From Candidatus Woesearchaeota archaeon (GTDB lineage Archaea; Nanobdellota; Nanobdellia; Pacearchaeales; GW2011-AR1): a stretch of DNA of 64,000 nucleotides. Positions within the stretch are counted from its first letter, which is position 1, and every line of letters starts with the position of its first letter. The notes under the pieces were generated by a model. That model was not told the DNA's origin and searched no databases. It saw only the letters and a list, made by a program, of their open reading frames with translations. Of the stretch, positions 3,057 to 63,315 are shown piece after piece. Where the stretch lies: positions 36,625 to 100,624 of the forward strand of contig CAZYZS010000003.1 of NCBI GenBank assembly GCA_964651965.1, in the 5' to 3' direction. A program made the translations under genes and the position numbers.

Positions 3057-3151
3057 GGACCCGTAGCTCAGCCCGGTTAGAGCACCGGACTCTTAAATTT
3101 TCAAATTTTGAAGAAATCCGGGTGTCGGGGGTTCAAATCCCCTCGGGTCCA
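3057..3151 (+). tRNA. tRNA-Lys(CUU) with 20-nt intron (about 3097-3116)
   Basis: Hand-folded: acceptor GGACCCG/CGGGTCC, D arm GCTC..GAGC, anticodon stem CCGGA/TCCGG, loop CTCTTAA, T arm GGGGG-TTCAAAT-CCCCT. A T5 run follows (3152-3156). Confidence 0.85.
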
Positions 3152-36047: not shown

Positions 36048-36794
36048 ATGGCAAGAGTTTATAGCCTTGTTTCTGGCAAAGGAGGCACAGGAAAAACAAG
36101 TTCTGCAATAAATCTAGCTGCCGCATTAAACTCGTTAGGAGAAGACGTTATCGTTGTGGATGCAAATATTTCCACCCCTAATATAGGGATTCATTTAGGA
36201 GCTCCAATTGTGCCTGTAACTCTCAACCATATTCTAAACAACAGAGCAGAAGTTACAGAAGCAATATACAAACACGAATCTGGACTTAAAATACTTCCCG
36301 CCTCGCTATCCACCCAGGATTTGGGCAAGATAAAGCACGAAAATCTCATACATACAGTAAAACAATTAAAAAAATTTTCCAAGTATATAATACTAGACTC
36401 TGCAGCTGGTTTGGGCAAAGAAACAGAAATGGCCATACTTGCTTCAGACGAGGCAATAATAGTGACGCAACCTGAAATGCCTGCTATAACTGATGCTCTG
36501 AAGGCAATCAAGCTATGCGAGCAGCTGGGAAAACCAGTAAAAGGCTTTATTTTAACGAGACACAGGTGGAAAAAATCAGAGATGCAAGTAGAAAACATTC
36601 TGGATATGCTTGAAATTCCAGTTGTTGGACTAATACCCGAAGATAAAAACATGCAAAAAGCTCTAATGCTTAAATCTCCAATAGTCAATTCCCATCCAAG
36701 AAGCAAGGCGAGCAAAGCCTATTTTGAAACAGCCAGGCGCCTTTTAGGAATTAAAGAAGAAAAAAGCTTCTTTAAAAAATTATTTGGAAGCTGA
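36048..36794 (+). CDS. minD: MinD/ParA-family ATPase (archaeal MinD-like)
   Basis: Deviant Walker A SGKGGTGKTS, DSAAGLG, VTQPEMPAITDA and a C-terminal amphipathic SFFKKLFGS tail. Confidence 0.8.
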   Translation: MARVYSLVSGKGGTGKTSSAINLAAALNSLGEDVIVVDANISTPNIGIHLGAPIVPVTLNHILNNRAEVTEAIYKHESGLKILPASLSTQDLGKIKHENLIHTVKQLKKFSKYIILDSAAGLGKETEMAILASDEAIIVTQPEMPAITDALKAIKLCEQLGKPVKGFILTRHRWKKSEMQVENILDMLEIPVVGLIPEDKNMQKALMLKSPIVNSHPRSKASKAYFETARRLLGIKEEKSFFKKLFGS

Positions 36795-36861: not shown

Positions 36862-37650
36862 ATGTTAAAAGGAGGCGACACAGAAACAATCGAAGATCTC
36901 TGGAAAGCCTACCATCAAGGAAGAGCGCAAGGCGATGGGCAAGTTTATAAAAATCACTTAATAGAACGCTACCGAGATTTAGTAAAATACGCAGCAGAGC
37001 GACTTCATGAAAAACTTCCAGATAAAGTAGAATTAGACGATTTGATTTCTGCTGGGACTTTCGGTTTAATAAATGCTATAGAAGCCTACGATCCCGAACG
37101 AGGAGTTAAGTTTGAAACTTACTGCGCACCAAGAATTAAAGGCTCAATTTTAGATGAATTAAGAAGAATGGACTGGGCTCCAAGACTGATGAGAGCAAGA
37201 GCCCAGCAGCTGACAAAAGCAACTCACACCCTAGAAATGCGCCTTGGAAGAACGCCAAATGACGAAGAACTAGCAGAAGAGCTAAATATGGGCAGAGAAG
37301 AATATAAAAGGCTAAGAAGAGACGCAGATGCAGCAGCACTTTTCTCTTTAGAAAACCCGACCAGTTCAGATGAGTATGACGGAGAAAAAACTTATTTAGT
37401 AGATGAGCTTGATAATCAAAGAGCAGAAGATCCAGTTTTAGAAGTTCAAAAAAGAGACCTTCAAGAATTATTAACAAAAGGCCTGGCCCGCGCAGAACGA
37501 TTAATAATTGCTCTCTATTATTATGAAGAGATGACAATGGAAGAAATAGGCGCAGTCCTAGATTTAAGTCAATCACGAGTAAGCCAGCTGCATGCCTCAA
37601 TTATTGCAAGATTAAAAGTCAGAATAAGCCCAGGGCACTTGCAGCTATAA
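36862..37650 (+). CDS. fliA: RNA polymerase sigma factor, sigma-28 (FliA/WhiG) family, bacterial type
   Basis: Region 2 DDLISAGTFGLINAIEAYDPERGVKFETYCAPRIKGSILDELRRMDWAPR, region 3 LEMRLGRTPNDEELAEEL, and region 4 ERLIIALYYYEEMTMEEIGAVLDLSQSRVSQLHASIIARLK. Confidence 0.9.
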   Translation: MLKGGDTETIEDLWKAYHQGRAQGDGQVYKNHLIERYRDLVKYAAERLHEKLPDKVELDDLISAGTFGLINAIEAYDPERGVKFETYCAPRIKGSILDELRRMDWAPRLMRARAQQLTKATHTLEMRLGRTPNDEELAEELNMGREEYKRLRRDADAAALFSLENPTSSDEYDGEKTYLVDELDNQRAEDPVLEVQKRDLQELLTKGLARAERLIIALYYYEEMTMEEIGAVLDLSQSRVSQLHASIIARLKVRISPGHLQL

Positions 37651-38028: not shown

Positions 38029-38115
38029 TGGGCCTGCAAGGAATTGAACCTTGTACCTTCTCGATTTTCAGTGTGCACTCGTGAACGAGACGTTCTGCCG
38101 ATGAACCACAAGCCC
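38029..38115 (-). tRNA. tRNA-Val(CAC) with ~15-nt intron
   Basis: Hand-folded from the reverse complement: acceptor GGGCTTG/CAGGCCC, D arm GTTC..GAAC, anticodon stem TCTCG/CGAGA, loop TTCACG.., T arm CAAGG-TTCAATT-CCTTG, discriminator A. Confidence 0.75.
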
Positions 38116-54048: not shown

Positions 54049-54157
54049 TGAGGCTGCGCAGATTTGAACTGCGGACCCCCGCCTTATCAGACTCACCTCC
54101 TGCCTAAATGTTCTCAGGACAGGATGCGGTGCTCTAACCGGGCTGAGCTACAGCCTC
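54049..54157 (-). tRNA. tRNA-Ile(GAU) with 34-nt intron at a non-canonical position (within anticodon stem, about 30/31)
   Basis: Hand-folded: acceptor GAGGCTG/CAGCCTC, D arm GCTC-AGCCCGGTTA-GAGC, 5' stem CCGC[intron]T pairing with GGCGG, loop CTGATAA, T arm CGCAG-TTCAAAT-CTGCG, discriminator A. Confidence 0.7.
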
Positions 54158-55197: not shown

Positions 55198-55728
55198 TTG
55201 ACCATGAGCCTTATAAAAAAAATATACCAAGAAGGAGTCCGCTGCATAGGATTTAATGCTCATGGAGAGGTTATTCTAGTAAAAAGAAGAGATTTAAAGG
55301 TCTGGGAGCTTCCAGGAGGAGGAATTGATCCAGGAGAAAGTCTAGAGGAAGCAGCAAAGAGAGAATTTGAAGAAGAAACCGGCCTAGGAATAATAATAAC
55401 AACTTATCGGGGCCCATACAAAATATCCTTTCCACATCCCTTTCCTTTTCTCTATAATACCTATCATGTTTATTCTGGGCAAGTTACAGGAGGAAAAATT
55501 AAAATGAATGACGAAGTTAGTAAAATAAGGGCATTCTCACCATATAATCTCCCTCGAGGTCTCCCATATTATTATAAGAGCTGTATAAACGACGCAACAG
55601 CTGGAACAATTCATGATTCTCCAGTTATACAAAGAGCAGGTCTCTCCCATCTGGTAAGAACATTGGCAGCCAATCCCCAAGTACTTCTTCGCCTCCCAAT
55701 TTTGTTCAGATTTTTAACAAAGGAATGA
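55198..55728 (+). CDS. NUDIX hydrolase
   Basis: Canonical Nudix box WELPGGGIDPGESLEEAAKREFEEETGL. Confidence 0.8.
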   Translation: MTMSLIKKIYQEGVRCIGFNAHGEVILVKRRDLKVWELPGGGIDPGESLEEAAKREFEEETGLGIIITTYRGPYKISFPHPFPFLYNTYHVYSGQVTGGKIKMNDEVSKIRAFSPYNLPRGLPYYYKSCINDATAGTIHDSPVIQRAGLSHLVRTLAANPQVLLRLPILFRFLTKE

Positions 55729-55749: not shown

Positions 55750-55757
55750 TTTAAAAA
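55750..55757 (+). promoter_or_regulatory. Putative TATA box for the LpxC-like gene
   Basis: TTTAAAAA 22 nt before ATG 55779. Confidence 0.4.
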
Positions 55758-55778: not shown

Positions 55779-56798
55779 ATGCCAAAACAGAGGACAATAA
55801 AAGAAGTAACTGACCTGTTAGTAGGAATTGAACCCTATGGAGGAAACGCCGTTAACGTTAGGATTTATCCAGCAGAACCAAATACAGGGATTGTTTTTAC
55901 TGACGGAAAACACTGGATTAAATTAGAAGATAGATACCTTCACACTGGCCATAGGCTTGCTCTCGCAAAAACACTGTTTTTAGAAAGAGATGGTGTAAAA
56001 GTAAGAGGATTAGAGCACCTTACAGGGGATATATTTGTGCACAGAATTGACAATGCAGTAGTGGAACTAAAAATGGAACCTCATTTAAGTTATAGGTTAT
56101 TCCACCGGCTTGGGCAGGCAAGAAACACCATAGTTGTTCCGTACTTTCCGGACTTAGAAGGAGGAGTGTGCAGAGCATTAAAAAAAGCAGGAATAGAAGA
56201 ACAACCTAAAGATATACCTTATCTTAGACTTAAAACCAATATAGATACAGAAAAAATAAAATTAGAAAAAATAAAAGGCGATGAGGTTGTTGTAGAAGCT
56301 AGAACCAGATACGCTCTTGCTAACGGCGACGTTGTTGAAGGAACAAGAACAATTACCTTAGTTCCAGAAGAATACAATGGCATAGCCAATGCAAGAGCTT
56401 TTTTTGGAGTCCCAATTGCTGTTCCAGAAGGTTTTACCAGAAAAAGAGGCATTTTACATAGCAGTTTTCCAACGTTATTTTCAAAAAGTGCGATGAGGTT
56501 TATAGGGCATTTTCTATATCTTAGTTTCGGACTTGGAACCGGGATTAATGAAGCTAATTCGTTTTACCCTCCAACTTCGGCTACAGAATGGAAAGAAAGA
56601 CAACTAAGGGAAAATGAAATAGCCGAACACTCGATAGTAGATCGGGCAGGAGACTTTATGGAAAGGCTTTACTTGATATTTAATGCTCGACCTGCTGGCA
56701 TGAAACTCACTTGCCAATTTGCAGGACATAAAGATGCACATGACCTTATAAGAAAGTGCGGTACAGAATATAGGAACAGATTTTATATAGAAGATTAA
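55779..56798 (+). CDS. LpxC-family (UDP-3-O-acyl-GlcNAc deacetylase-like) zinc hydrolase homologue
   Basis: PKQRTIK..., PAEPNTGIVF, GLEHL, ARAFFG, EHSIVDRAGD and AGHKDAH line up with E. coli LpxC (recalled from memory) at KQRTLK, PAPANTGVIY, VEHL (E78/H79), ARTFGF, RHKMLDAIGD (H238/D242/D246) and SGHALN (H265). Confidence 0.6.
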   Translation: MPKQRTIKEVTDLLVGIEPYGGNAVNVRIYPAEPNTGIVFTDGKHWIKLEDRYLHTGHRLALAKTLFLERDGVKVRGLEHLTGDIFVHRIDNAVVELKMEPHLSYRLFHRLGQARNTIVVPYFPDLEGGVCRALKKAGIEEQPKDIPYLRLKTNIDTEKIKLEKIKGDEVVVEARTRYALANGDVVEGTRTITLVPEEYNGIANARAFFGVPIAVPEGFTRKRGILHSSFPTLFSKSAMRFIGHFLYLSFGLGTGINEANSFYPPTSATEWKERQLRENEIAEHSIVDRAGDFMERLYLIFNARPAGMKLTCQFAGHKDAHDLIRKCGTEYRNRFYIED

Positions 56799-57934: not shown

Positions 57935-58741
57935 TTAGTAACTCTCTCTATCACTCCTATCATATGCCTCGTAATCTGGTCCAGTTACACAAGTATCTGC
58001 TCTGCAGTCTAATCCATCATAGCAAAAAGAAGTGAACTGCTGCATATTTTTACAGCAATCCTGGTCTAGATGCCCGCATTCGCTAGATTCTTGTGAATCA
58101 GGCTGGTAGCCATAAGGGTCGTAGTTAGGAGTGTCCTGGCTGTCAATATTAGACTGACTTGGTGTTGAAACTGTCTCTGCTTCTACTTTTTTGCAAGTTC
58201 CGCTTATGCACTGCCCATAAGCGCACGGATAATCAGTAGGGCAGCATGGCTGCTCGTAATCTCCACAAGCCTCGCATATCCCGCTGTAGGAGTTATAAAC
58301 CCCATAATAACAGCCACTATCGCAAGGAACATACCCAATCATCCCGCAATCATCATAATAATCAGAATTAACTTTGCATCTTCCCAGAGTGCAGCTTGCT
58401 CCTTGAAAACACTGAAGATTATCGTAATCTTTATAACAGCAGGCCTCACCAAAACTACCGCAATGAATACATTTCCCATTTTGGCATTCTCCATAATAAC
58501 AAACTCCATCAGAACAACAGGTTCCTCCATACTCCCCACAACCTGATTCAGAATAACTGTCATAAACAGAATTGGCAGAATCCGAACTAGAAGGAGTTGT
58601 CGAAGAATAATCAGAAACAGCCGCCCCAGTTACTTTAGGTTCAAAAAAAGGCCTGATAAAATAATATCCCCCAATAACAACAACTATTAAAAGAATAAGA
58701 ATAATAACCGCCGCGAAACTTGCCTTTTTATTCATCCTCAT
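57935..58741 (-). CDS. Membrane-anchored/secreted protein with five tandem Cys-rich (CG..CC..C..C..C) modules
   Basis: TM anchor AAVIILILLIVVVIGGYYFI and a Ser-rich linker. Modules: CGEYGGTCCSDGVCYYGECQNGKC, CGSFGEACCYKD..C..C..GRC, CGMIGYVPCDSGC.., CGDYEQPCCPTDYPCAYGQCISGTC, CGHLDQDCCKN..C..C..DTC. Confidence 0.65.
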   Translation of the reverse strand: MRMNKKASFAAVIILILLIVVVIGGYYFIRPFFEPKVTGAAVSDYSSTTPSSSDSANSVYDSYSESGCGEYGGTCCSDGVCYYGECQNGKCIHCGSFGEACCYKDYDNLQCFQGASCTLGRCKVNSDYYDDCGMIGYVPCDSGCYYGVYNSYSGICEACGDYEQPCCPTDYPCAYGQCISGTCKKVEAETVSTPSQSNIDSQDTPNYDPYGYQPDSQESSECGHLDQDCCKNMQQFTSFCYDGLDCRADTCVTGPDYEAYDRSDRESY

Positions 58742-58794: not shown

Positions 58795-60033
58795 TTATTT
58801 TAAGTCAGATGGTTTTATATCGATTTTTATTTTTTTAGGTGTTATTATTAGCAAGAAAATTGCAATAATAACTCCTGCGATTCCCAAAATACTAAAAGCC
58901 AGTTTAATTAAAATTAAATCTGCTAAAAGTCCTCCTATCATTGGCCCAAAAATATAAGCAAAATTAAAAGAAGAGTCTTCTAAGGATTCTATTTCTTTTT
59001 CAACTATCTGAGTTTCAGAGATGTAATCTGCATAAGCGCCATTTATAGAAGGCAAAGCTAAATTAATAAAACATGCTGAAAGAAAAGTCAAAAGTATTAT
59101 TGTTATTGGAGTGCTCCAAAAATAAAAGAAAGAAAGAATAAAACATCCAATTAAAAGCCCTAAAAAAGCTGTCTTTTTCTTGCCTAATCTTTTAGTAATT
59201 TTCCCAGTATACCATCCCAATATTAAAGTTGGAAGTGCATAGGCCGTTAAGAATAATCCTCCGAAGTACTTAGGAATTGCTTCTTCAGCATATAATGGTG
59301 CGAGAGTCCAGAAAAAAGACTCTATAAAAAAAGCAAAGAAAGTAACAGCTAAGACAGGAAATATTTTTTTGCCTATTTTTCTCCAGAGCCTAAATTCCAG
59401 GAAAATATTTCTGAAGTTCGCCCGTTTAGTTTCTTTCTTGCGCACTTTACCTCCAGTCATAATGTTTAAAGTTATGAAAAAGATTATGGAAATAATCAGG
59501 AATATCCATCCGAATATAAATGGCAAGAAGGTTATTCCATCAATTATCAAAAGTCCTGCAATAGTTGGCGCCAAGATTATTCCTAAGTACTTAGCTATCT
59601 GGATTATTCCAAAATTAGAAGAATATTCTTTCTTTTTTGTGTAAATGCTTACAAAATCAAAAATCCCAAATCCAGACAAATCGAAATAAATTCCCCAAAG
59701 AGCCATTGCAACCAGGTAAACTAAGATAGAAGAAGCTTTCCACAGAATTAATGGATAAATAAGACATGCCAAAAACATCAGAAGAAATACTCTCCGGAAA
59801 TTAGTATTTCTGAAAAATCTGCAAACTAAGACATCAAAAAGAACGCCAGTTATAGAAGAAGTCCCAATTATAAATCCAATAAGGGTCATTGAAAAATTAT
59901 TTTGTGACAATAAAATTGGAACGAGGTAGGTCATGATTCCATCAAATATAGCCCAGAATAATATCATCAAAGATAAGATATAGATTGGAGAAGCAACTTT
60001 CTTGTATTTCCACAGGTACTTATTTAGAATCAT
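58795..60033 (-). CDS. MFS transporter
   Basis: 412 aa with about 12 TM segments in a 6+6 layout and a central basic loop (KVRKKETKRANFRN). Confidence 0.7.
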   Translation of the reverse strand: MILNKYLWKYKKVASPIYILSLMILFWAIFDGIMTYLVPILLSQNNFSMTLIGFIIGTSSITGVLFDVLVCRFFRNTNFRRVFLLMFLACLIYPLILWKASSILVYLVAMALWGIYFDLSGFGIFDFVSIYTKKKEYSSNFGIIQIAKYLGIILAPTIAGLLIIDGITFLPFIFGWIFLIISIIFFITLNIMTGGKVRKKETKRANFRNIFLEFRLWRKIGKKIFPVLAVTFFAFFIESFFWTLAPLYAEEAIPKYFGGLFLTAYALPTLILGWYTGKITKRLGKKKTAFLGLLIGCFILSFFYFWSTPITIILLTFLSACFINLALPSINGAYADYISETQIVEKEIESLEDSSFNFAYIFGPMIGGLLADLILIKLAFSILGIAGVIIAIFLLIITPKKIKIDIKPSDLK

Positions 60034-60042
60034 TTAATCCTC

Positions 60043-61326
60043 CTAAATAATGTAAAGATGATGAAACTCTTTATTCCTTTTTAGTTTAACATCTGGGTTA
60101 TATTTTGCCAGTTTTAAGGAATTTTGTTTTTTAAAAACATATTCTTGTACTCTCATGTTATCAAACATAAAATACCTGAAATAGGAATCCCATAAATCTT
60201 CCACAAAATTTGCTCCAGGCTTTATATCGCTGAACATCAGGCTGAAAATAGAGGCGAATATGCCTACAATTACCTGAGTATAAGTAGCATTAGTTCCAAT
60301 GGTTGCAAGATTCGGAACCGAATTAAAATAATAAACTTTTTTGTCAGGATAATCAAGAATCACCCCTATGCTGTCTGCACCATCTAGAATTTCACATGCA
60401 TTATCTCCTATCCTTAAGTCCTTTTTAGTTATATTTTTCTTATCTTCATAGATTTTGACTAGATATTTAAGTGTCTGCTGGTTTATCCCATAAATAAATT
60501 TTGAAGGGATATCGTACTTAGAAGATACAGAAAGATTTTCTTCATGCAAAACTGTCATTCCTTCGGGATACTGCCCCATCTTCCAGATAGGGCTTAATAT
60601 TTTCTTCATGCTTCTTCTATTTTCCAAAGCATTTGGTAAAAGCTTTTTTATCTTATTTTTACCAACCGCAAATCCGGAAGGGTCCCTTACTGATTCCACT
60701 AGAAACTCATGCAAAGACCAGGTCATCATAGGCCTCCATTTTCTAGCATCAATAGAAGTATCGTATTCAAAGTGAATTATTTCTTTCGGAATCCCGAATT
60801 TTTCTATGCCATATCTCACCCACATGTTCACATTGCCAGGATTCATTCCAGTACAGAGTATGTGAGGCGCATTATTCAGGGAGTCTTTTCGTGGATATAC
60901 ATTATAAACTAATTCAGAAACCATTTTGTTATCGTCGTTCATTGCAGTATTAATATAAGAAATTTTTGCTTTGTCAGTAGCTTCTAATGCCTCTATGCTG
61001 TTCATATCAGTTATGTCCAATACAATATCAATCTTATTGTCTTTCAATAGTTTAATGTATTCTCTTTCTTTCTCAGGCAATACTATTTCTTTATGTATGA
61101 ACTTATAATTTAGCAGTTCATGGTCTATATATGGGTCCTTAAGAAGCTTTTTATTTTTATCCAGTAAAATCACCTTGTTAAAATGATTTCTCTCGCTAGG
61201 AAGATGATGCAAAAAAGCATTAGCTACCCCTCCAGATGCCCCTAAAACTAAAAGATTCGGTTTATCTAACATTTTCTCTTTTTTTATATAGAGCGAAGTT
61301 AATTTATAAAGATTATGGATAGACAA
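60043..61326 (-). CDS. Saccharopine-dehydrogenase-family NAD(P)-binding protein (homospermidine-synthase-like)
   Basis: LLVLGASGGVANAF Rossmann motif, ILCTGMNPGNVNMWV and MTWSLHEFLVES resemble the bacterial HSS / saccharopine dehydrogenase family. The start may be MLDKPN (61272). Confidence 0.5.
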   Translation of the reverse strand: MSIHNLYKLTSLYIKKEKMLDKPNLLVLGASGGVANAFLHHLPSERNHFNKVILLDKNKKLLKDPYIDHELLNYKFIHKEIVLPEKEREYIKLLKDNKIDIVLDITDMNSIEALEATDKAKISYINTAMNDDNKMVSELVYNVYPRKDSLNNAPHILCTGMNPGNVNMWVRYGIEKFGIPKEIIHFEYDTSIDARKWRPMMTWSLHEFLVESVRDPSGFAVGKNKIKKLLPNALENRRSMKKILSPIWKMGQYPEGMTVLHEENLSVSSKYDIPSKFIYGINQQTLKYLVKIYEDKKNITKKDLRIGDNACEILDGADSIGVILDYPDKKVYYFNSVPNLATIGTNATYTQVIVGIFASIFSLMFSDIKPGANFVEDLWDSYFRYFMFDNMRVQEYVFKKQNSLKLAKYNPDVKLKRNKEFHHLYII

Positions 61327-61332
61327 AAGAAG

Positions 61333-62463
61333 CTATCCAAGCACTTTTCTTGTAAATTTAATCTTTCTTATCAAATCTCCAATTACAAAACACAATGTAA
61401 CTCCAAGTATCGAAACAAAAATAAACTTAACATAAGATGGAATAAAAATACCCTGGAAAATTATTACAAGAGGAAGAATTACTAGCTGATGGATTATATA
61501 AACAACATAAAAATTAGGAGCCATCCAGGCAATTAAATTTCCCTGCGAGTTAAGCCTTTTCTTAAAAATGTAAATTAAACTGATTATAATGCTGTAGCAT
61601 GCAATTGTCTCCCAGAAAGAATAAACTAACGACTGCCATGTCAGTCCACCTGTAAATTTTTCAGTGTTTTCTGCTGCCCCTCCAAATACAAATATAAATG
61701 GCAGAGCCACAAGAACTACAACAGCAATTATTTTCCATAGCCTTGCCTGTTTTGCCCCAAGGCTTTCAAGCCAATTCCCTCTGTACGCAAGGATTCCAAT
61801 CCAGAAACAAAAAATGTAATTGACAAAATGAGCCAACTGAAAAATATGAATTTCCACTCCTACCGGGAAAAGGGTACGGACAAAGAAAGTTAAGATTGCA
61901 AGAACAAAGATGCTTATTACAATTGTTCTATTAGAAGGAAATTTATCCTTAAAACAAATAAACGACTTATTTATTAAACCCCTGTATAAAACATAAACAA
62001 AGCAGAAAATAAGCAGAGCTTCAACAAACCATAATGGCCCGACAAACCATCCAGGATCTTTTAAATTATAAGCAATTACATTCACAAAAGTTATTGTCTC
62101 GCCTCTAAAAAAATTCAAGATAAGATAATCTATTATTACCTTAAAAACAGTTGTATAAATTAACAAAGGAATTCCCAATCTAATCAGCCTGTCTCCCAAA
62201 AACTTCCCTGCTCCTTTTCTGTCAAAAGACCCTAGAGTAAAATATCCTGAAAGCAAGAAAAACAAGCCCATAAAAAAGCTTTGGCAGATTGCATTAAAAA
62301 GAGTAAGAATTATCGGGCTTATCTCATCGCTTGCCCCTTCTTTAGCAGGATAAATGCCCTCTCCTCCATAAATAATAGAAATATGAATAAGTACAACAAG
62401 GATTATAAGAAAAAGCCTGATATTATCAATATACAAAAGTCTATCCTGCCTGCCTTTCTCCAT
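61333..62463 (-). CDS. Acyltransferase family 3 membrane protein
   Basis: RLLYIDNIRLFLIILVVLIHIS start and about 10 TM segments, typical of Acyl_transf_3 (OatA/OpgC-like). Confidence 0.7.
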   Translation of the reverse strand: MEKGRQDRLLYIDNIRLFLIILVVLIHISIIYGGEGIYPAKEGASDEISPIILTLFNAICQSFFMGLFFLLSGYFTLGSFDRKGAGKFLGDRLIRLGIPLLIYTTVFKVIIDYLILNFFRGETITFVNVIAYNLKDPGWFVGPLWFVEALLIFCFVYVLYRGLINKSFICFKDKFPSNRTIVISIFVLAILTFFVRTLFPVGVEIHIFQLAHFVNYIFCFWIGILAYRGNWLESLGAKQARLWKIIAVVVLVALPFIFVFGGAAENTEKFTGGLTWQSLVYSFWETIACYSIIISLIYIFKKRLNSQGNLIAWMAPNFYVVYIIHQLVILPLVIIFQGIFIPSYVKFIFVSILGVTLCFVIGDLIRKIKFTRKVLG

Positions 62464-62619: not shown

Positions 62620-63315
62620 ATGAGAATTAAGACTTACTTGAATTGCACTGAGCAAGATATCAAATCAAAAAAGTTTAACATTTTTGTAGGTATCAGTTTA
62701 GGGAACAAGTATTTTACCAAAGAAAATATTAAAAAGTATATTTTTTGGGCTTTGGAAAATACTAAAGAAGATGTTTTAGTTTTAATCGCAGATAAAAACC
62801 ACGCAATAAATTATGAAGTTCTCAATGATTACAGTCATGAAAGAGCTCTACAAGTCGCATTAAGAAAGGGTTTAGAAATTGAAGAATCTGTTAAAAAAAT
62901 AGTACGTGGGCTACCAAAAGAAAAACACCATCTTATTAAAATTTGCAAATGGGATGATGCAAGAAAGTCCTTTTATTATCAAAACAAAATAAAAATTTTT
63001 CTTGATGAATTTAGAGAAAATATCAAATTCCACGATTTCATAATAAAAATTGTTCAAGAGAATTTAGGAGAAAAGGCAATCAATTTAGATGTTGAACAAT
63101 TAGAAAAATTGTCTTTGTACATTCTTGATGAATGTCCAATTTTTTTGAATGGCGTGGAATTTGATGGAAAAATTTATGATTTACATCCTTATCCAGGGCT
63201 TTCTTGCTTTGATGATTTACTAATAGATTTGCAAAATGGAAAAATGTTCCCTAATCTTGCAAAGAGGTTAGAGATAAAAAATAAGATTGCAGAAGTAGAA
63301 GCTTACGTTGAATAG
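62620..63315 (+). CDS. tRNA-dependent cyclodipeptide synthase (CDPS)
   Basis: FNIFVGISLGNKYFTKENIKKYIFWAL...DVLVLIADK versus AlbC ALIGISAGNSYFSQKNTVMLLQWAG (recalled). LYILDECPIF versus NYVLAEAPLF (Y178/E182). A Tyr-Pro pair lies 20 residues after that Glu (XYP-type). Confidence 0.7.
   Translation: MRIKTYLNCTEQDIKSKKFNIFVGISLGNKYFTKENIKKYIFWALENTKEDVLVLIADKNHAINYEVLNDYSHERALQVALRKGLEIEESVKKIVRGLPKEKHHLIKICKWDDARKSFYYQNKIKIFLDEFRENIKFHDFIIKIVQENLGEKAINLDVEQLEKLSLYILDECPIFLNGVEFDGKIYDLHPYPGLSCFDDLLIDLQNGKMFPNLAKRLEIKNKIAEVEAYVE

What the first reader, a model, noticed from the sequence alone, without database searches (positions are those of the whole stretch)
55779..56798. LpxC-family deacetylase homologue with the catalytic constellation preserved, in an organism that should have no lipid A
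Seen: the 339-aa ORF aligns by eye with E. coli LpxC (recalled from memory) at several points. These are KQRTIK/KQRTLK, PAEPNTGIVF/PAPANTGVIY, GLEHL/TVEHL (Glu78, His79), ARAFFG/ARTFGF, EHSIVDRAGD/RHKMLDAIGD (His238, Asp242, Asp246) and AGHKDAH/SGHALNN (His265). The middle of the protein is divergent. The gene has its own TTTAAAAA element 22 nt upstream. Established: LpxC catalyses the committed step of lipid A synthesis in Gram-negative bacteria, and archaea lack lipid A; no other lpx gene is visible here. Inference: this is a horizontally acquired zinc deacetylase retargeted to another N-acetylated substrate, such as a surface glycan precursor, or possibly a host-derived molecule.
Basis: partly seen in the sequence, partly recalled or inferred. 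Interest (0 to 1): 0.7.

Follow-up and report, generated by a model that had tools for sequence, protein, structure and literature searches.

The report
Divergent LpxC-fold deacetylase in DPANN archaeon
A tiny symbiotic-type archaeon carries a real but strongly remodelled relative of the bacterial enzyme LpxC, which commits bacteria to making lipid A. The metal-binding catalytic core is intact, the substrate-recognition parts are changed, and no other lipid A genes are nearby, so it most likely deacetylates some other, still unknown molecule.

Summary
ORF 55779-56798 (+) encodes a 339-aa protein that is homologous to bacterial LpxC over its full length: Pfam PF03331 E=7.5e-12, profile-profile E=1e-47, AlphaFold pLDDT 91.7, and all of the top 50 PDB fold matches are LpxC. 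The zinc ligands and acid/base residues are present (E79/H80, H284, D288, D292, H317 = E. coli E78/H79, H238, D242, D246, H265). They are invariant across 48 aligned relatives, except D246, which most relatives lack. The oxyanion Thr191 (Ala here), Lys239 (Ser here), the basic UDP patch, His19 and the PIxDGS loop are not kept. Two insertions remodel the cleft and the acyl-tunnel insert.

The host is a Nanoarchaeia (DPANN) archaeon, and no other lpx gene lies in the 64 kb. The gene is native: it has local GC content, an archaeal TATA box at exactly -29, and conserved synteny after rpl15e in relatives down to 47% identity. It belongs to a monophyletic, mostly archaeal clade of about 55 full-length representatives (80/80 NJ bootstrap). 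The nearest branches are divergent bacterial LpxCs, one of them lpxI-linked, which points to ancient rather than recent transfer.

The function is inferred only. The best reading is an active metallo-amidase retargeted to another N-acyl substrate, probably a nucleotide- or lipid-linked amino sugar. No description was found in the literature searched. It is a new variant of a known kind.

The parts
55750..55757 (+). TATA-box-like promoter element TTTAAAAA, -29 to -22 from the ATG (leaderless-type spacing)
   Evidence: Sequence read. The same motif class starts at exactly -29 for 10 of 58 ORFs in the window. Similar A/T boxes lie about 30 nt upstream of the homologues in L005, L006, L008, L105, L016, L096 and L098.
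55779..56798 (+). CDS, 339 aa: LpxC-fold metallo-amidohydrolase of the archaeal (Nanoarchaeia/Woesearchaeota) clade, long subclade
56013..56018 (+). Codons for Glu79-His80 (= E. coli general base E78 and Zn ligand H79)
   Evidence: Invariant in 48/48 family sequences and in bacterial LpxC.
56079..56135 (+). Family-specific 19-aa insertion (PHLSYRLFHRLGQARNTIV). It precedes VPYFPDLE, which replaces the bacterial E-x-P-I-x-D-G-S cleft loop
   Evidence: Gap opposite all bacterial sequences. The model places an extra helix at 103-111 and a strand at 117-119 with pLDDT of 90 or more.
56310..56312 (+). Tyr178, invariant aromatic residue aligned with E. coli Phe161 (Tyr in many bacteria)
   Evidence: 48/48 family sequences.
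56394..56399 (+). Arg206-Ala207 (= E. coli R190-T191). The Arg is invariant; the oxyanion-stabilising Thr is replaced
   Evidence: In the family this position is P/A/S and is Thr in only 3 of 48 aligned family sequences.
56403..56528 (+). Remodelled and enlarged Insert II (the acyl-tunnel insert of LpxC), about 35 aa longer than in E. coli, ending in the conserved G251-x-G-x-G255
   Evidence: This is the only low-confidence part of the model (block pLDDT 48-70 for residues about 210-240).
56628..56654 (+). H284-S-I-V-D288-R-A-G-D292 (= E. coli H238-K239-x-x-D242-x-x-x-D246). The Zn ligands are kept and Lys239 is replaced by Ser
56727..56729 (+). His317 (= E. coli H265, general acid / oxyanion partner)
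   Evidence: 48/48 family sequences.
55198..55728 (+). NUDIX hydrolase gene, a possible but unproven functional partner
   Evidence: Pfam NUDIX 4.8e-20. Its orthologue is adjacent to the LpxC-like gene in 3 of 5 long-subclade loci, on either side: upstream in L001 and L008, and starting 2 nt after the stop codon in L105. No specific subfamily could be assigned.

Best explanation
The gene encodes a functional, cytoplasmic, metal-dependent amidohydrolase with the two-domain LpxC fold. It is a native, independently transcribed gene of a Nanoarchaeia (DPANN) archaeon.

It belongs to a monophyletic, predominantly archaeal clade. That clade most likely arose from a bacterial lpxC acquired long ago and then diverged.

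The inferred chemistry is that of LpxC. A His-His-Asp-bound Zn2+ activates a water molecule, Glu79 acts as the general base, and His317 (paired with Asp292) acts as general acid and oxyanion stabiliser, so an amide bond is hydrolysed.

The elements that make LpxC specific for UDP-3-O-(R-3-hydroxyacyl)-GlcNAc have been replaced or remodelled. These are Thr191, Lys239, the basic UDP patch, His19, the PIxDGS cleft loop and the Insert-II acyl tunnel. No other Raetz-pathway gene accompanies it. The substrate is therefore most likely a different N-acetylated or N-acylated compound.

My best guess is a nucleotide- or isoprenoid-lipid-linked N-acetylhexosamine used for surface glycoconjugates. This rests on the invariant Tyr at the position I recall, unverified here, as the uracil-stacking site, and on the still hydrophobic Insert II.

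What is shown: homology, fold, conservation of catalytic residues, archaeal context, and the clade structure. What is inferred: catalytic activity and the substrate class.
For: - Homology and fold: hhalign E=1e-47, both domains; pLDDT 91.7, pTM 0.90; top 50 PDB hits all LpxC; TM 0.64-0.68 normalised to the query, 0.71-0.82 to the target.
- Catalytic residues: E78, H79, H238, D242, H265 and R190 equivalents are invariant in 48-56 family sequences whose mean column identity is only 29%. This argues for purifying selection on catalysis.
- Altered specificity determinants: T191 becomes A/P/S, K239 becomes T/S, K143 and K262 are absent, the D105-G-S loop is lost, H19 becomes Y/F, and the tunnel residue F212 becomes a charged residue. 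The roles of E78 and T191, of the tunnel residues and of the UDP-pocket residues F192 and D197 are taken from PMC11472313.
- Native archaeal gene: local GC content, TATA box at -29, rpl15e synteny in five loci at 47-61% identity.
- No lpx genes in the 64 kb.
- Clade monophyly 80/80 in NJ bootstraps, with bacterial P0131 (lpxI-linked) and P0140 branching first.
- Score gradient against the LpxC equivalog TIGR00325 (cutoff 187 bits): canonical LpxC 381 bits, divergent bacterial sequences 93-100, short archaeal clade 51-71, this subclade 24-39.
Against: - No biochemical data exist.
- I could not read the model's coordinates, so the zinc-site geometry, the tunnel and the pocket electrostatics are untested.
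- The alignment across Insert II is unreliable.
- The rest of the genome could not be searched for lpxA, lpxD and the other pathway genes.
- Gene neighbourhoods give no consistent functional signal. The short clade shares no neighbours, and the long subclade's neighbours are housekeeping genes (rpl15e, a dPGM-type mutase, DNA ligase).
- The equivalog cut-off is not discriminating on its own, because an lpxI-linked bacterial LpxC also falls below it.
- Loss of Thr191 and, in most of the family, of Asp246 could mean reduced or altered catalysis.
Confidence: 0.6

Rival explanations
1. It is a genuine LpxC. It deacetylates UDP-3-O-acyl-GlcNAc, which would be either made by lpxA-type genes elsewhere in the genome or scavenged from a bacterial partner, as part of making a lipid A-like or acyl-glucosamine lipid in DPANN archaea.
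For: - Full-length homology and the complete Zn and acid/base set.
- The aromatic residue at F161 and the Arg at R190 are invariant.
- Insert II is still present and hydrophobic.
- Short-clade relatives give full-length Pfam LpxC matches of 97-114 bits.
- The nearest bacterial branch includes an lpxI-linked gene that also scores below the equivalog cut-off.
Against: - No lpx gene lies in the 64 kb window or in any of the roughly 15 distinct family loci examined.
- T191, K239, K143, K262, H19 and D105-G-S, which are invariant or nearly so in bacterial LpxC, are all replaced.
- This subclade scores only 24-39 bits on TIGR00325.
- Lipid A is not known in archaea (established knowledge).
Confidence: 0.12
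2. It is an active LpxC-fold amidase, but its substrate is not a sugar. Candidates include an N-acyl amino acid, a peptide, or a small-molecule amide, for example in salvage or detoxification.
For: - The sugar- and UDP-contacting residues are not conserved.
- Neighbourhoods contain no glycosyltransferases or sugar-nucleotide enzymes.
- Neighbours in the short clade are central-metabolism or salvage genes: aldolase, an MtnA-like isomerase, APRT and transaldolase (labelled from my reading of the translations, not tested against any family library).
Against: - The aromatic residue aligned with F161 is invariant, which hints that a nucleotide is retained.
- Every characterised member of the fold acts on a GlcNAc derivative.
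- The NUDIX adjacency in 3 of 5 long-subclade loci fits a nucleoside-diphosphate-linked substrate.
Confidence: 0.2
3. It is not a working archaeal enzyme. It would be either bacterial contamination or mis-assembly, or a decaying or non-catalytic remnant.
For: Only the N-terminal 95 residues pass Pfam on their own. Close relatives are very rare: 4 among 5.8 billion proteins.
Against: - The identical gene lies in the same archaeal context on four independently assembled contigs, one of them 84 kb.
- It has an archaeal TATA box at -29 and the local GC content.
- The ORF is intact, with invariant catalytic residues across a 29%-identity family.
- The fold prediction is confident.
Confidence: 0.03

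Closest known systems
Bacterial LpxC, UDP-3-O-acyl-N-acetylglucosamine deacetylase (E. coli P0A725 / PDB 4MQY and 4MDT; P. aeruginosa PDB 7CIC; A. aeolicus 1P42); Pfam PF03331
   Same: [quoted passage not shown]
- N-terminal QxT and PAxPNTGIVF motifs.
- Zn ligands His/His/Asp in EH and HxxxD motifs.
- Glu general base, the GH histidine, Arg190, Glu234, and the Gly pair of Insert II.
   Different: - About 17-20% identity.
- Thr191 becomes Ala, Lys239 becomes Ser, and His19 becomes Tyr.
- The E-x-P-I-x-D-G-S loop is replaced, with a 19-aa insertion.
- Insert II is about 35 aa longer.
- The basic UDP patch (K143, K262) is absent.
- There is no C-terminal tail.
- The host is archaeal and the gene has no Raetz-pathway partners.
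- The score is far below the NCBIfam equivalog cut-offs (24 against 187 bits).
Divergent bacterial LpxC lineage represented by P0131 (directly downstream of lpxI) and P0140 (58.6% GC contig, overlapping an FGGY kinase gene)
   Same: They branch at the base of the same NJ clade. They share the family's sequence signature strongly enough to be retrieved by its profile at E of 1e-18 to 1e-26.
   Different: - They keep Thr191 and Lys239.
- They give full-length Pfam LpxC matches of 125-131 bits.
- Their context is bacterial, and for P0140 a Shine-Dalgarno-like sequence is present.
- P0131 is in a lipid A gene context, so it is probably a true LpxC.
Short archaeal LpxC-like clade (P0005, P0226; Woesearchaeota and Nanoarchaeota loci L016-L018)
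   Same: Same clade and same catalytic residues. The domain-I insertion is the same, and they have the FG-x-G-H-G and W271 signatures. Upstream elements are archaeal.
   Different: - About 300 aa, lacking the extra 16-aa Insert-II expansion.
- The Asp246 equivalent is mostly Ala.
- His254 is conserved there but is Thr in the window protein.
- They are closer to canonical LpxC (Pfam 97-114 bits, full length).
- They show no rpl15e synteny.
Functionally analogous Zn-dependent de-N-acetylases of other folds: PIG-L/LmbE family (GlcNAc-PI de-N-acetylase, MshB, BshB) and CE4 polysaccharide deacetylases
   Same: From my own knowledge, not tested here: metal-activated water hydrolyses the N-acetyl group of a GlcNAc conjugate in glycolipid or glycoconjugate synthesis. 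This is the kind of role proposed for the window protein.
   Different: The folds and motifs are unrelated. No sequence or fold match to them was seen.

Membership tests
LpxC superfamily (Pfam PF03331 / LpxC fold) | Significant match to the family HMM | tested here: met
   PF03331 E=7.5e-12, 45.8 bits against a gathering score of 27, but covering only profile positions 1-90 of 268. Full-length homology was shown by hhalign: probability 100%, E=1e-47, 271 columns.
LpxC superfamily (Pfam PF03331 / LpxC fold) | [quoted passage not shown] | tested here: met
   AlphaFold2 model with pLDDT 91.7 and pTM 0.90. In Foldseek against the PDB, the top 50 hits are all LpxC, with E down to 4e-19 and TM 0.64-0.68 (query-normalised) or 0.71-0.82 (target-normalised).
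LpxC superfamily (Pfam PF03331 / LpxC fold) | Zn2+ ligands His79, His238, Asp242 (E. coli numbering) | tested here: met
   H80, H284 and D288 are present and are invariant in 48/48 family sequences. Their three-dimensional geometry was not inspected.
LpxC superfamily (Pfam PF03331 / LpxC fold) | General base Glu78 and general acid His265, the latter oriented by Asp246 | tested here: met
   E79, H317 and D292 are present. Glu and His are invariant in the family. Asp246 is Ala in most of the family and is Asp or Glu only in this part of the tree.
Functional LpxC (UDP-3-O-acyl-GlcNAc deacetylase, NCBIfam TIGR00325 equivalog) | Score above the curated equivalog cut-off | tested here: not met
   24.1 bits against a cut-off of 187.25; 30.4 against 465; 36.2 against 423. 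Caveat: the lpxI-linked bacterial P0131 also scores below the cut-off at 100 bits, whereas a canonical LpxC scores 381 bits.
Functional LpxC (UDP-3-O-acyl-GlcNAc deacetylase, NCBIfam TIGR00325 equivalog) | Oxyanion-stabilising Thr191 | tested here: not met
   The position is Ala207. It is invariant Thr in 29 bacterial LpxCs and is P/A/S in the family.
Functional LpxC (UDP-3-O-acyl-GlcNAc deacetylase, NCBIfam TIGR00325 equivalog) | Lys239 and the basic UDP-binding patch (K143, K262), His19, and the PIxDGS cleft loop | tested here: not met
   K239 becomes Ser285. K143 aligns to a gap, K262 becomes Phe, H19 becomes Tyr20, and D105-G-S is replaced by FPDLE after a 19-aa insertion.
Functional LpxC (UDP-3-O-acyl-GlcNAc deacetylase, NCBIfam TIGR00325 equivalog) | Insert II forming a hydrophobic tunnel for the 3-O-acyl chain | tested here: inconclusive
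   The insert is present, rich in hydrophobic residues and about 35 aa longer. It is the only low-confidence region of the model (pLDDT 48-70), and the F212 equivalent is charged.
Functional LpxC (UDP-3-O-acyl-GlcNAc deacetylase, NCBIfam TIGR00325 equivalog) | Co-occurrence with the other Raetz-pathway genes (lpxA, lpxD, lpxH/I/G, lpxB, lpxK) | tested here: not met
   None was found among the Pfam labels of the window's ORFs of 120 aa or more, nor next to the homologues in about 15 distinct archaeal loci. Whole genomes could not be searched.
Functional LpxC (UDP-3-O-acyl-GlcNAc deacetylase, NCBIfam TIGR00325 equivalog) | Deacetylase activity on UDP-3-O-(R-3-hydroxyacyl)-GlcNAc | not testable with these tools
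   This needs a recombinant enzyme assay.

The most novel reading that the evidence does not exclude
Some DPANN archaea (Nanoarchaeia/Woesearchaeota) use a retained LpxC-type enzyme on an acylated UDP-glucosamine-type substrate. They would either make a lipid A-like acyl-aminosugar lipid themselves or process lipid A precursors taken from bacterial partners. This would be the first lipid A-related chemistry in Archaea, and it would hint that these archaea associate with Gram-negative hosts.
Probability: 0.1. Interest if true: 0.85.

Novelty: new variant of a known kind. Interest (0 to 1): 0.55.

Why it matters
LpxC is regarded as a hallmark of lipid A synthesis, as a single-function enzyme, and as a major antibiotic target. 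This finding shows a coherent archaeal clade that keeps the catalytic machinery, has rebuilt the substrate-binding surfaces, and lacks the rest of the pathway.

That has three consequences:
- The LpxC fold has a second, unknown substrate specificity.
- It gives a concrete, expressible candidate for an unknown step in the poorly understood envelope or scavenging biochemistry of DPANN archaea.
- It documents an old bacterium-to-archaeon transfer followed by a change of function.

It also warns against annotating PF03331 hits in archaeal metagenome-assembled genomes as 'lipid A biosynthesis'.

Tried and rejected
1. Gene-neighbourhood inference. I used ORF calling and all-against-all BLAST on 19 loci. 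Only the long subclade shares neighbours (rpl15e, EndoV, Lon_C, NUDIX, DNA ligase). That mostly reflects relatedness. The short clade shares none.
2. The downstream His_Phos_1 gene as a pathway partner. It is a dPGM-type phosphoglycerate mutase (TIGR01258, 98 bits against a cut-off of 81.7), so I treat it as a housekeeping gene.
3. Defence-system membership. The LpxC-like protein has no PADLOC hit.
4. Selection analysis from near-identical contigs. The four contigs are 100% identical in DNA, so they carry no information.
5. Literature. I found no paper linking LpxC with DPANN, Woesearchaeota or archaeal homologues. The primary LpxC mechanism papers were not held in the library. The roles of K239, D246, H265 and F161 therefore rest on my own knowledge. 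The roles of E78, T191, the tunnel residues and the UDP-pocket residues F192 and D197 come from PMC11472313.
6. A second profile search of the 5.8-billion-protein set was swamped by bacterial LpxC and added only P0226 and P0140.
7. The metagenome scan with a family-specific C-terminal pattern gave only 11 loci.
8. My first family-versus-bacteria labelling in the tree was wrong. P0143 and P0146 are N-terminally truncated family members. I corrected this before running the bootstrap.
9. Recent horizontal transfer or contamination. Rejected on GC content, promoter and synteny.
10. Donor identification. Not attempted rigorously, because the bacterial sample lacks taxonomy and is biased towards sequences that score best against the family profile.
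Full report
**1. The observation**

The ORF 55779-56798 (+) exists as stated: ATG start, 339 aa. Before comparing, I checked my recalled E. coli LpxC sequence against the PDB. It is 305/305 identical to 4mqy_A.

- E79/H80 = E78/H79
- R206 = R190
- H284 = H238, D288 = D242, D292 = D246
- H317 = H265

Thr191 is Ala207, and Lys239 is Ser285.

The similarity is far beyond chance:
- Pfam PF03331 gives E=7.5e-12 and 45.8 bits against a gathering score of 27, although only for residues 4-98.
- phmmer against the PDB finds only LpxC chains, and it weakly aligns the HxxxD segment as well.
- A 48-sequence family profile against a 29-sequence bacterial LpxC profile gives probability 100%, E=1e-47, over 271 columns spanning both domains.

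**2. Fold**

An AlphaFold2 model built on the family alignment is confident: mean pLDDT 91.7, pTM 0.90. Only residues about 210-240 are poorly defined.

A Foldseek search of the PDB returns LpxC structures from P. aeruginosa, E. coli, A. aeolicus and Yersinia as all of the top 50 matches. E-values reach 4e-19. TM-scores are 0.64-0.68 normalised to the query and 0.71-0.82 normalised to the target.

I had no access to the coordinates. The zinc-site geometry and the tunnel therefore could not be inspected.

**3. The organism and the locus**

The window is archaeal:
- It carries ribosomal protein L15e immediately upstream.
- It also carries archaeal AdoMet synthase, RadA, eRF1, Sec61-beta and NAC.
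- Three of its tRNA genes are long, 87-109 nt, indicating introns.
- Its SerRS is 59-67% identical to proteins labelled Ca. Nanoarchaeia, DPANN group, Pacearchaeota and Woesearchaeota.

The GC content around the gene, 0.35-0.37, is that of the rest of the window.

TTTAAAAA lies at 55750-55757, that is -29 to -22 from the ATG. Motifs of the class TTTAWAWA start at exactly -29 for 10 of 58 ORFs in the window. These include rpl15e and this gene. The background is 1.3 per kb. This is the signature of archaeal TATA boxes driving leaderless mRNAs. The gene therefore has its own native promoter.

Pfam labels for the window's ORFs of 120 aa or more show no LpxA, LpxD, LpxH/I, LpxB or LpxK, and no hexapeptide acyltransferase.

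**4. Relatives**

Among 5.8 billion clustered proteins, only four close homologues exist:
- P0002, 61% identity
- P0003, 52%
- P0004, 47%
- P0005, 30%

Everything after these is bacterial LpxC at E of about 1e-6.

An exhaustive profile search of 1.84 billion representatives found 55 proteins at E<1e-30. About 55 full-length, single-stretch family representatives appear before bacterial LpxCs begin at around E of 1e-16.

A scan of GTDB species genomes returned three archaeal members: two Ca. Woesearchaeota and one Nanoarchaeota single-cell genome. The other 77 loci kept were bacterial lpxC genes.

In an NJ tree of 130 sequences and 268 columns, the family separates from 70 sampled bacterial LpxCs in 80 of 80 bootstraps. 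The window's 'long' subclade (P0001-4, P0076, P0077) is recovered in 67 of 80 bootstraps and is nested deep inside the family.

The two earliest branches of the clade are bacterial:
- P0140 lies on a 58.6% GC contig with accB/accC, an overlapping FGGY kinase gene, an ECF sigma/anti-sigma pair and a Shine-Dalgarno-like sequence.
- P0131 lies directly downstream of lpxI (PF06230, E=2e-46).
- Both keep Thr191 and Lys239 and give full-length Pfam LpxC matches.

Most archaeal members (not L017 or L018) have A/T-rich TATA-like boxes about 30 nt upstream and no Shine-Dalgarno sequence.

The picture is a bacterial lpxC lineage transferred long ago into Nanoarchaeia-type archaea and then diversified. 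The window's gene belongs to the most derived branch.

**5. What is conserved and what is not**

Across 48-56 family sequences with a mean column identity of 29%, the following are invariant:
- the equivalents of E78, H79, H238, D242, H265 and R190
- the aromatic residue aligned with F161, which is Tyr178 here

G205/G209 (E. coli numbering) and E234 are also kept.

Residues that are invariant or nearly invariant in bacterial LpxC are replaced:
- T191 becomes P/A/S
- K239 becomes T/S
- D246 is mostly Ala, but is Asp or Glu in the window's part of the tree
- H19 becomes Y/F
- D105-G106-S107 are lost
- K143 and K262 are absent

A 19-aa insertion (residues 101-119) is modelled as an extra helix and strand. 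It precedes the remodelled cleft loop.

Insert II forms the acyl-chain tunnel in LpxC. According to PMC11472313, that tunnel is lined by L18, L62, I198, C207, F212 and V217. Here Insert II is about 10 aa longer in the family and about 35 aa longer in this subclade. The F212 equivalent is usually charged.

Family-specific conserved residues appear that bacterial LpxCs lack: C131, W271, R289, R304, and in most members His254.

Scores against the LpxC equivalog model TIGR00325 (cut-off 187 bits) form a gradient:
- canonical LpxC: 381 bits
- divergent bacterial members: 93-100 bits
- short archaeal clade: 51-71 bits
- this subclade: 24-39 bits

**6. Context**

In five long-subclade loci at 47-61% identity, the gene always follows rpl15e. 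DNA ligase lies downstream in three of them.

A NUDIX hydrolase orthologue is adjacent in three of the five, on either side. It is upstream in L001 and L008. In L105 it begins 2 nt after the stop codon.

This is the only hint of a functional partner. It would fit a nucleoside-diphosphate-linked substrate, with the NUDIX enzyme playing a role analogous to the LpxH/LpxI pyrophosphatase step. The NUDIX protein cannot be assigned to a subfamily, and the signal is weak.

The downstream His_Phos_1 gene is a dPGM-type mutase.

Short-clade genes share no neighbours. One of them sits next to a polyprenyl synthetase gene. There is no PADLOC hit.

**7. Interpretation**

Shown:
- The protein is a full-length LpxC-fold homologue.
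- Its metal and acid/base residues are intact and under purifying selection.
- It is encoded by a native gene of a DPANN archaeon.
- It belongs to a monophyletic, predominantly archaeal clade with bacterial LpxCs at its base.

Inferred:
- It is an active zinc amidohydrolase using LpxC-type chemistry.
- The determinants of LpxC's specificity are replaced and the pathway partners are missing, so it probably acts on a different N-acyl substrate.
- My best guess is a nucleotide- or isoprenoid-lipid-linked N-acetylhexosamine.

Confidences:
- about 0.6 for 'active, retargeted LpxC-fold amidase'; I consider any particular substrate much less likely
- about 0.12 for true LpxC activity
- about 0.2 for a non-sugar amidase
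- about 0.03 for an artefact or pseudo-enzyme

**8. Novelty**

Pipelines already tag these proteins with PF03331. Full-text searches found no paper that describes or discusses archaeal or DPANN LpxC homologues.

It is a new variant of a known kind. It is interesting to specialists in LpxC and lipid A and in DPANN biology, and it is directly testable by enzymology. It is not a categorically new system.

Noticed in passing
window 36862-37650 (+), with 36048-36794 (+): A complete bacterial-type FliA/WhiG (sigma-28) RNA polymerase sigma factor sits on this archaeal contig (NCBIfam TIGR02479, 246 bits against a cut-off of 189.6; Pfam Sigma70 regions 2, 3 and 4). It lies directly downstream of an archaeal-type MinD ATPase (TIGR01969, 232 bits). 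The pairing resembles the bacterial flhG-fliA arrangement. Local GC is 0.378 against 0.317 in the preceding 2 kb, and a tRNA gene lies just downstream at 38029-38115 (-). It may be a transferred island.
   Followed up: partly
window 62620-63315 (+): A tRNA-dependent cyclodipeptide synthase homologue (PF16715, E=8.5e-14; TIGR04539, 75 bits against a cut-off of 45) in a DPANN archaeon.
   Followed up: no
window 57935-58741 (-): A 268-aa protein with an N-terminal hydrophobic segment and many repeated Cys-rich modules (CxxGxC...C). It has no Pfam, NCBIfam or PADLOC match and is presumably a secreted or surface protein.
   Followed up: no
window 58795-62463 (-): A run of minus-strand genes close to the LpxC-like gene: an MFS transporter, a saccharopine-dehydrogenase-like protein (427 aa) and an Acyl_transf_3 / MdoC-like membrane O-acyltransferase (99 bits to MdoC, below its cut-off). 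It may be a surface-glycan modification cluster. No link to the LpxC-like gene is shown, because these genes are absent from the other family loci.
   Followed up: partly
window, upstream of 58 ORFs: TTTAWAWA-type boxes start at exactly -29 from the start codon for 10 of 58 ORFs, and 20 of 58 have one between -40 and -20. This implies widespread leaderless transcription in this genome.
   Followed up: yes
window 3057-3151 (+), 38029-38115 (-), 54049-54157 (-): Three tRNA genes of 87-109 nt found by Rfam, presumably intron-containing. ARAGORN mis-called the first one (anticodon 'ttaa') and missed the other two.
   Followed up: no
L016 10909-13713 (-): In the Woesearchaeota locus, the EF-2 gene next to the LpxC-like gene is 934 aa. 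From my reading of the translation, it appears to carry an intein-like insertion after the P-loop region.
   Followed up: no
L107 4470-7167 (+): In a 58.6% GC bacterial contig, the divergent LpxC P0140 overlaps the end of an FGGY carbohydrate kinase gene by 8 nt and follows accB-accC. This is an unusual context for lpxC.
   Followed up: partly
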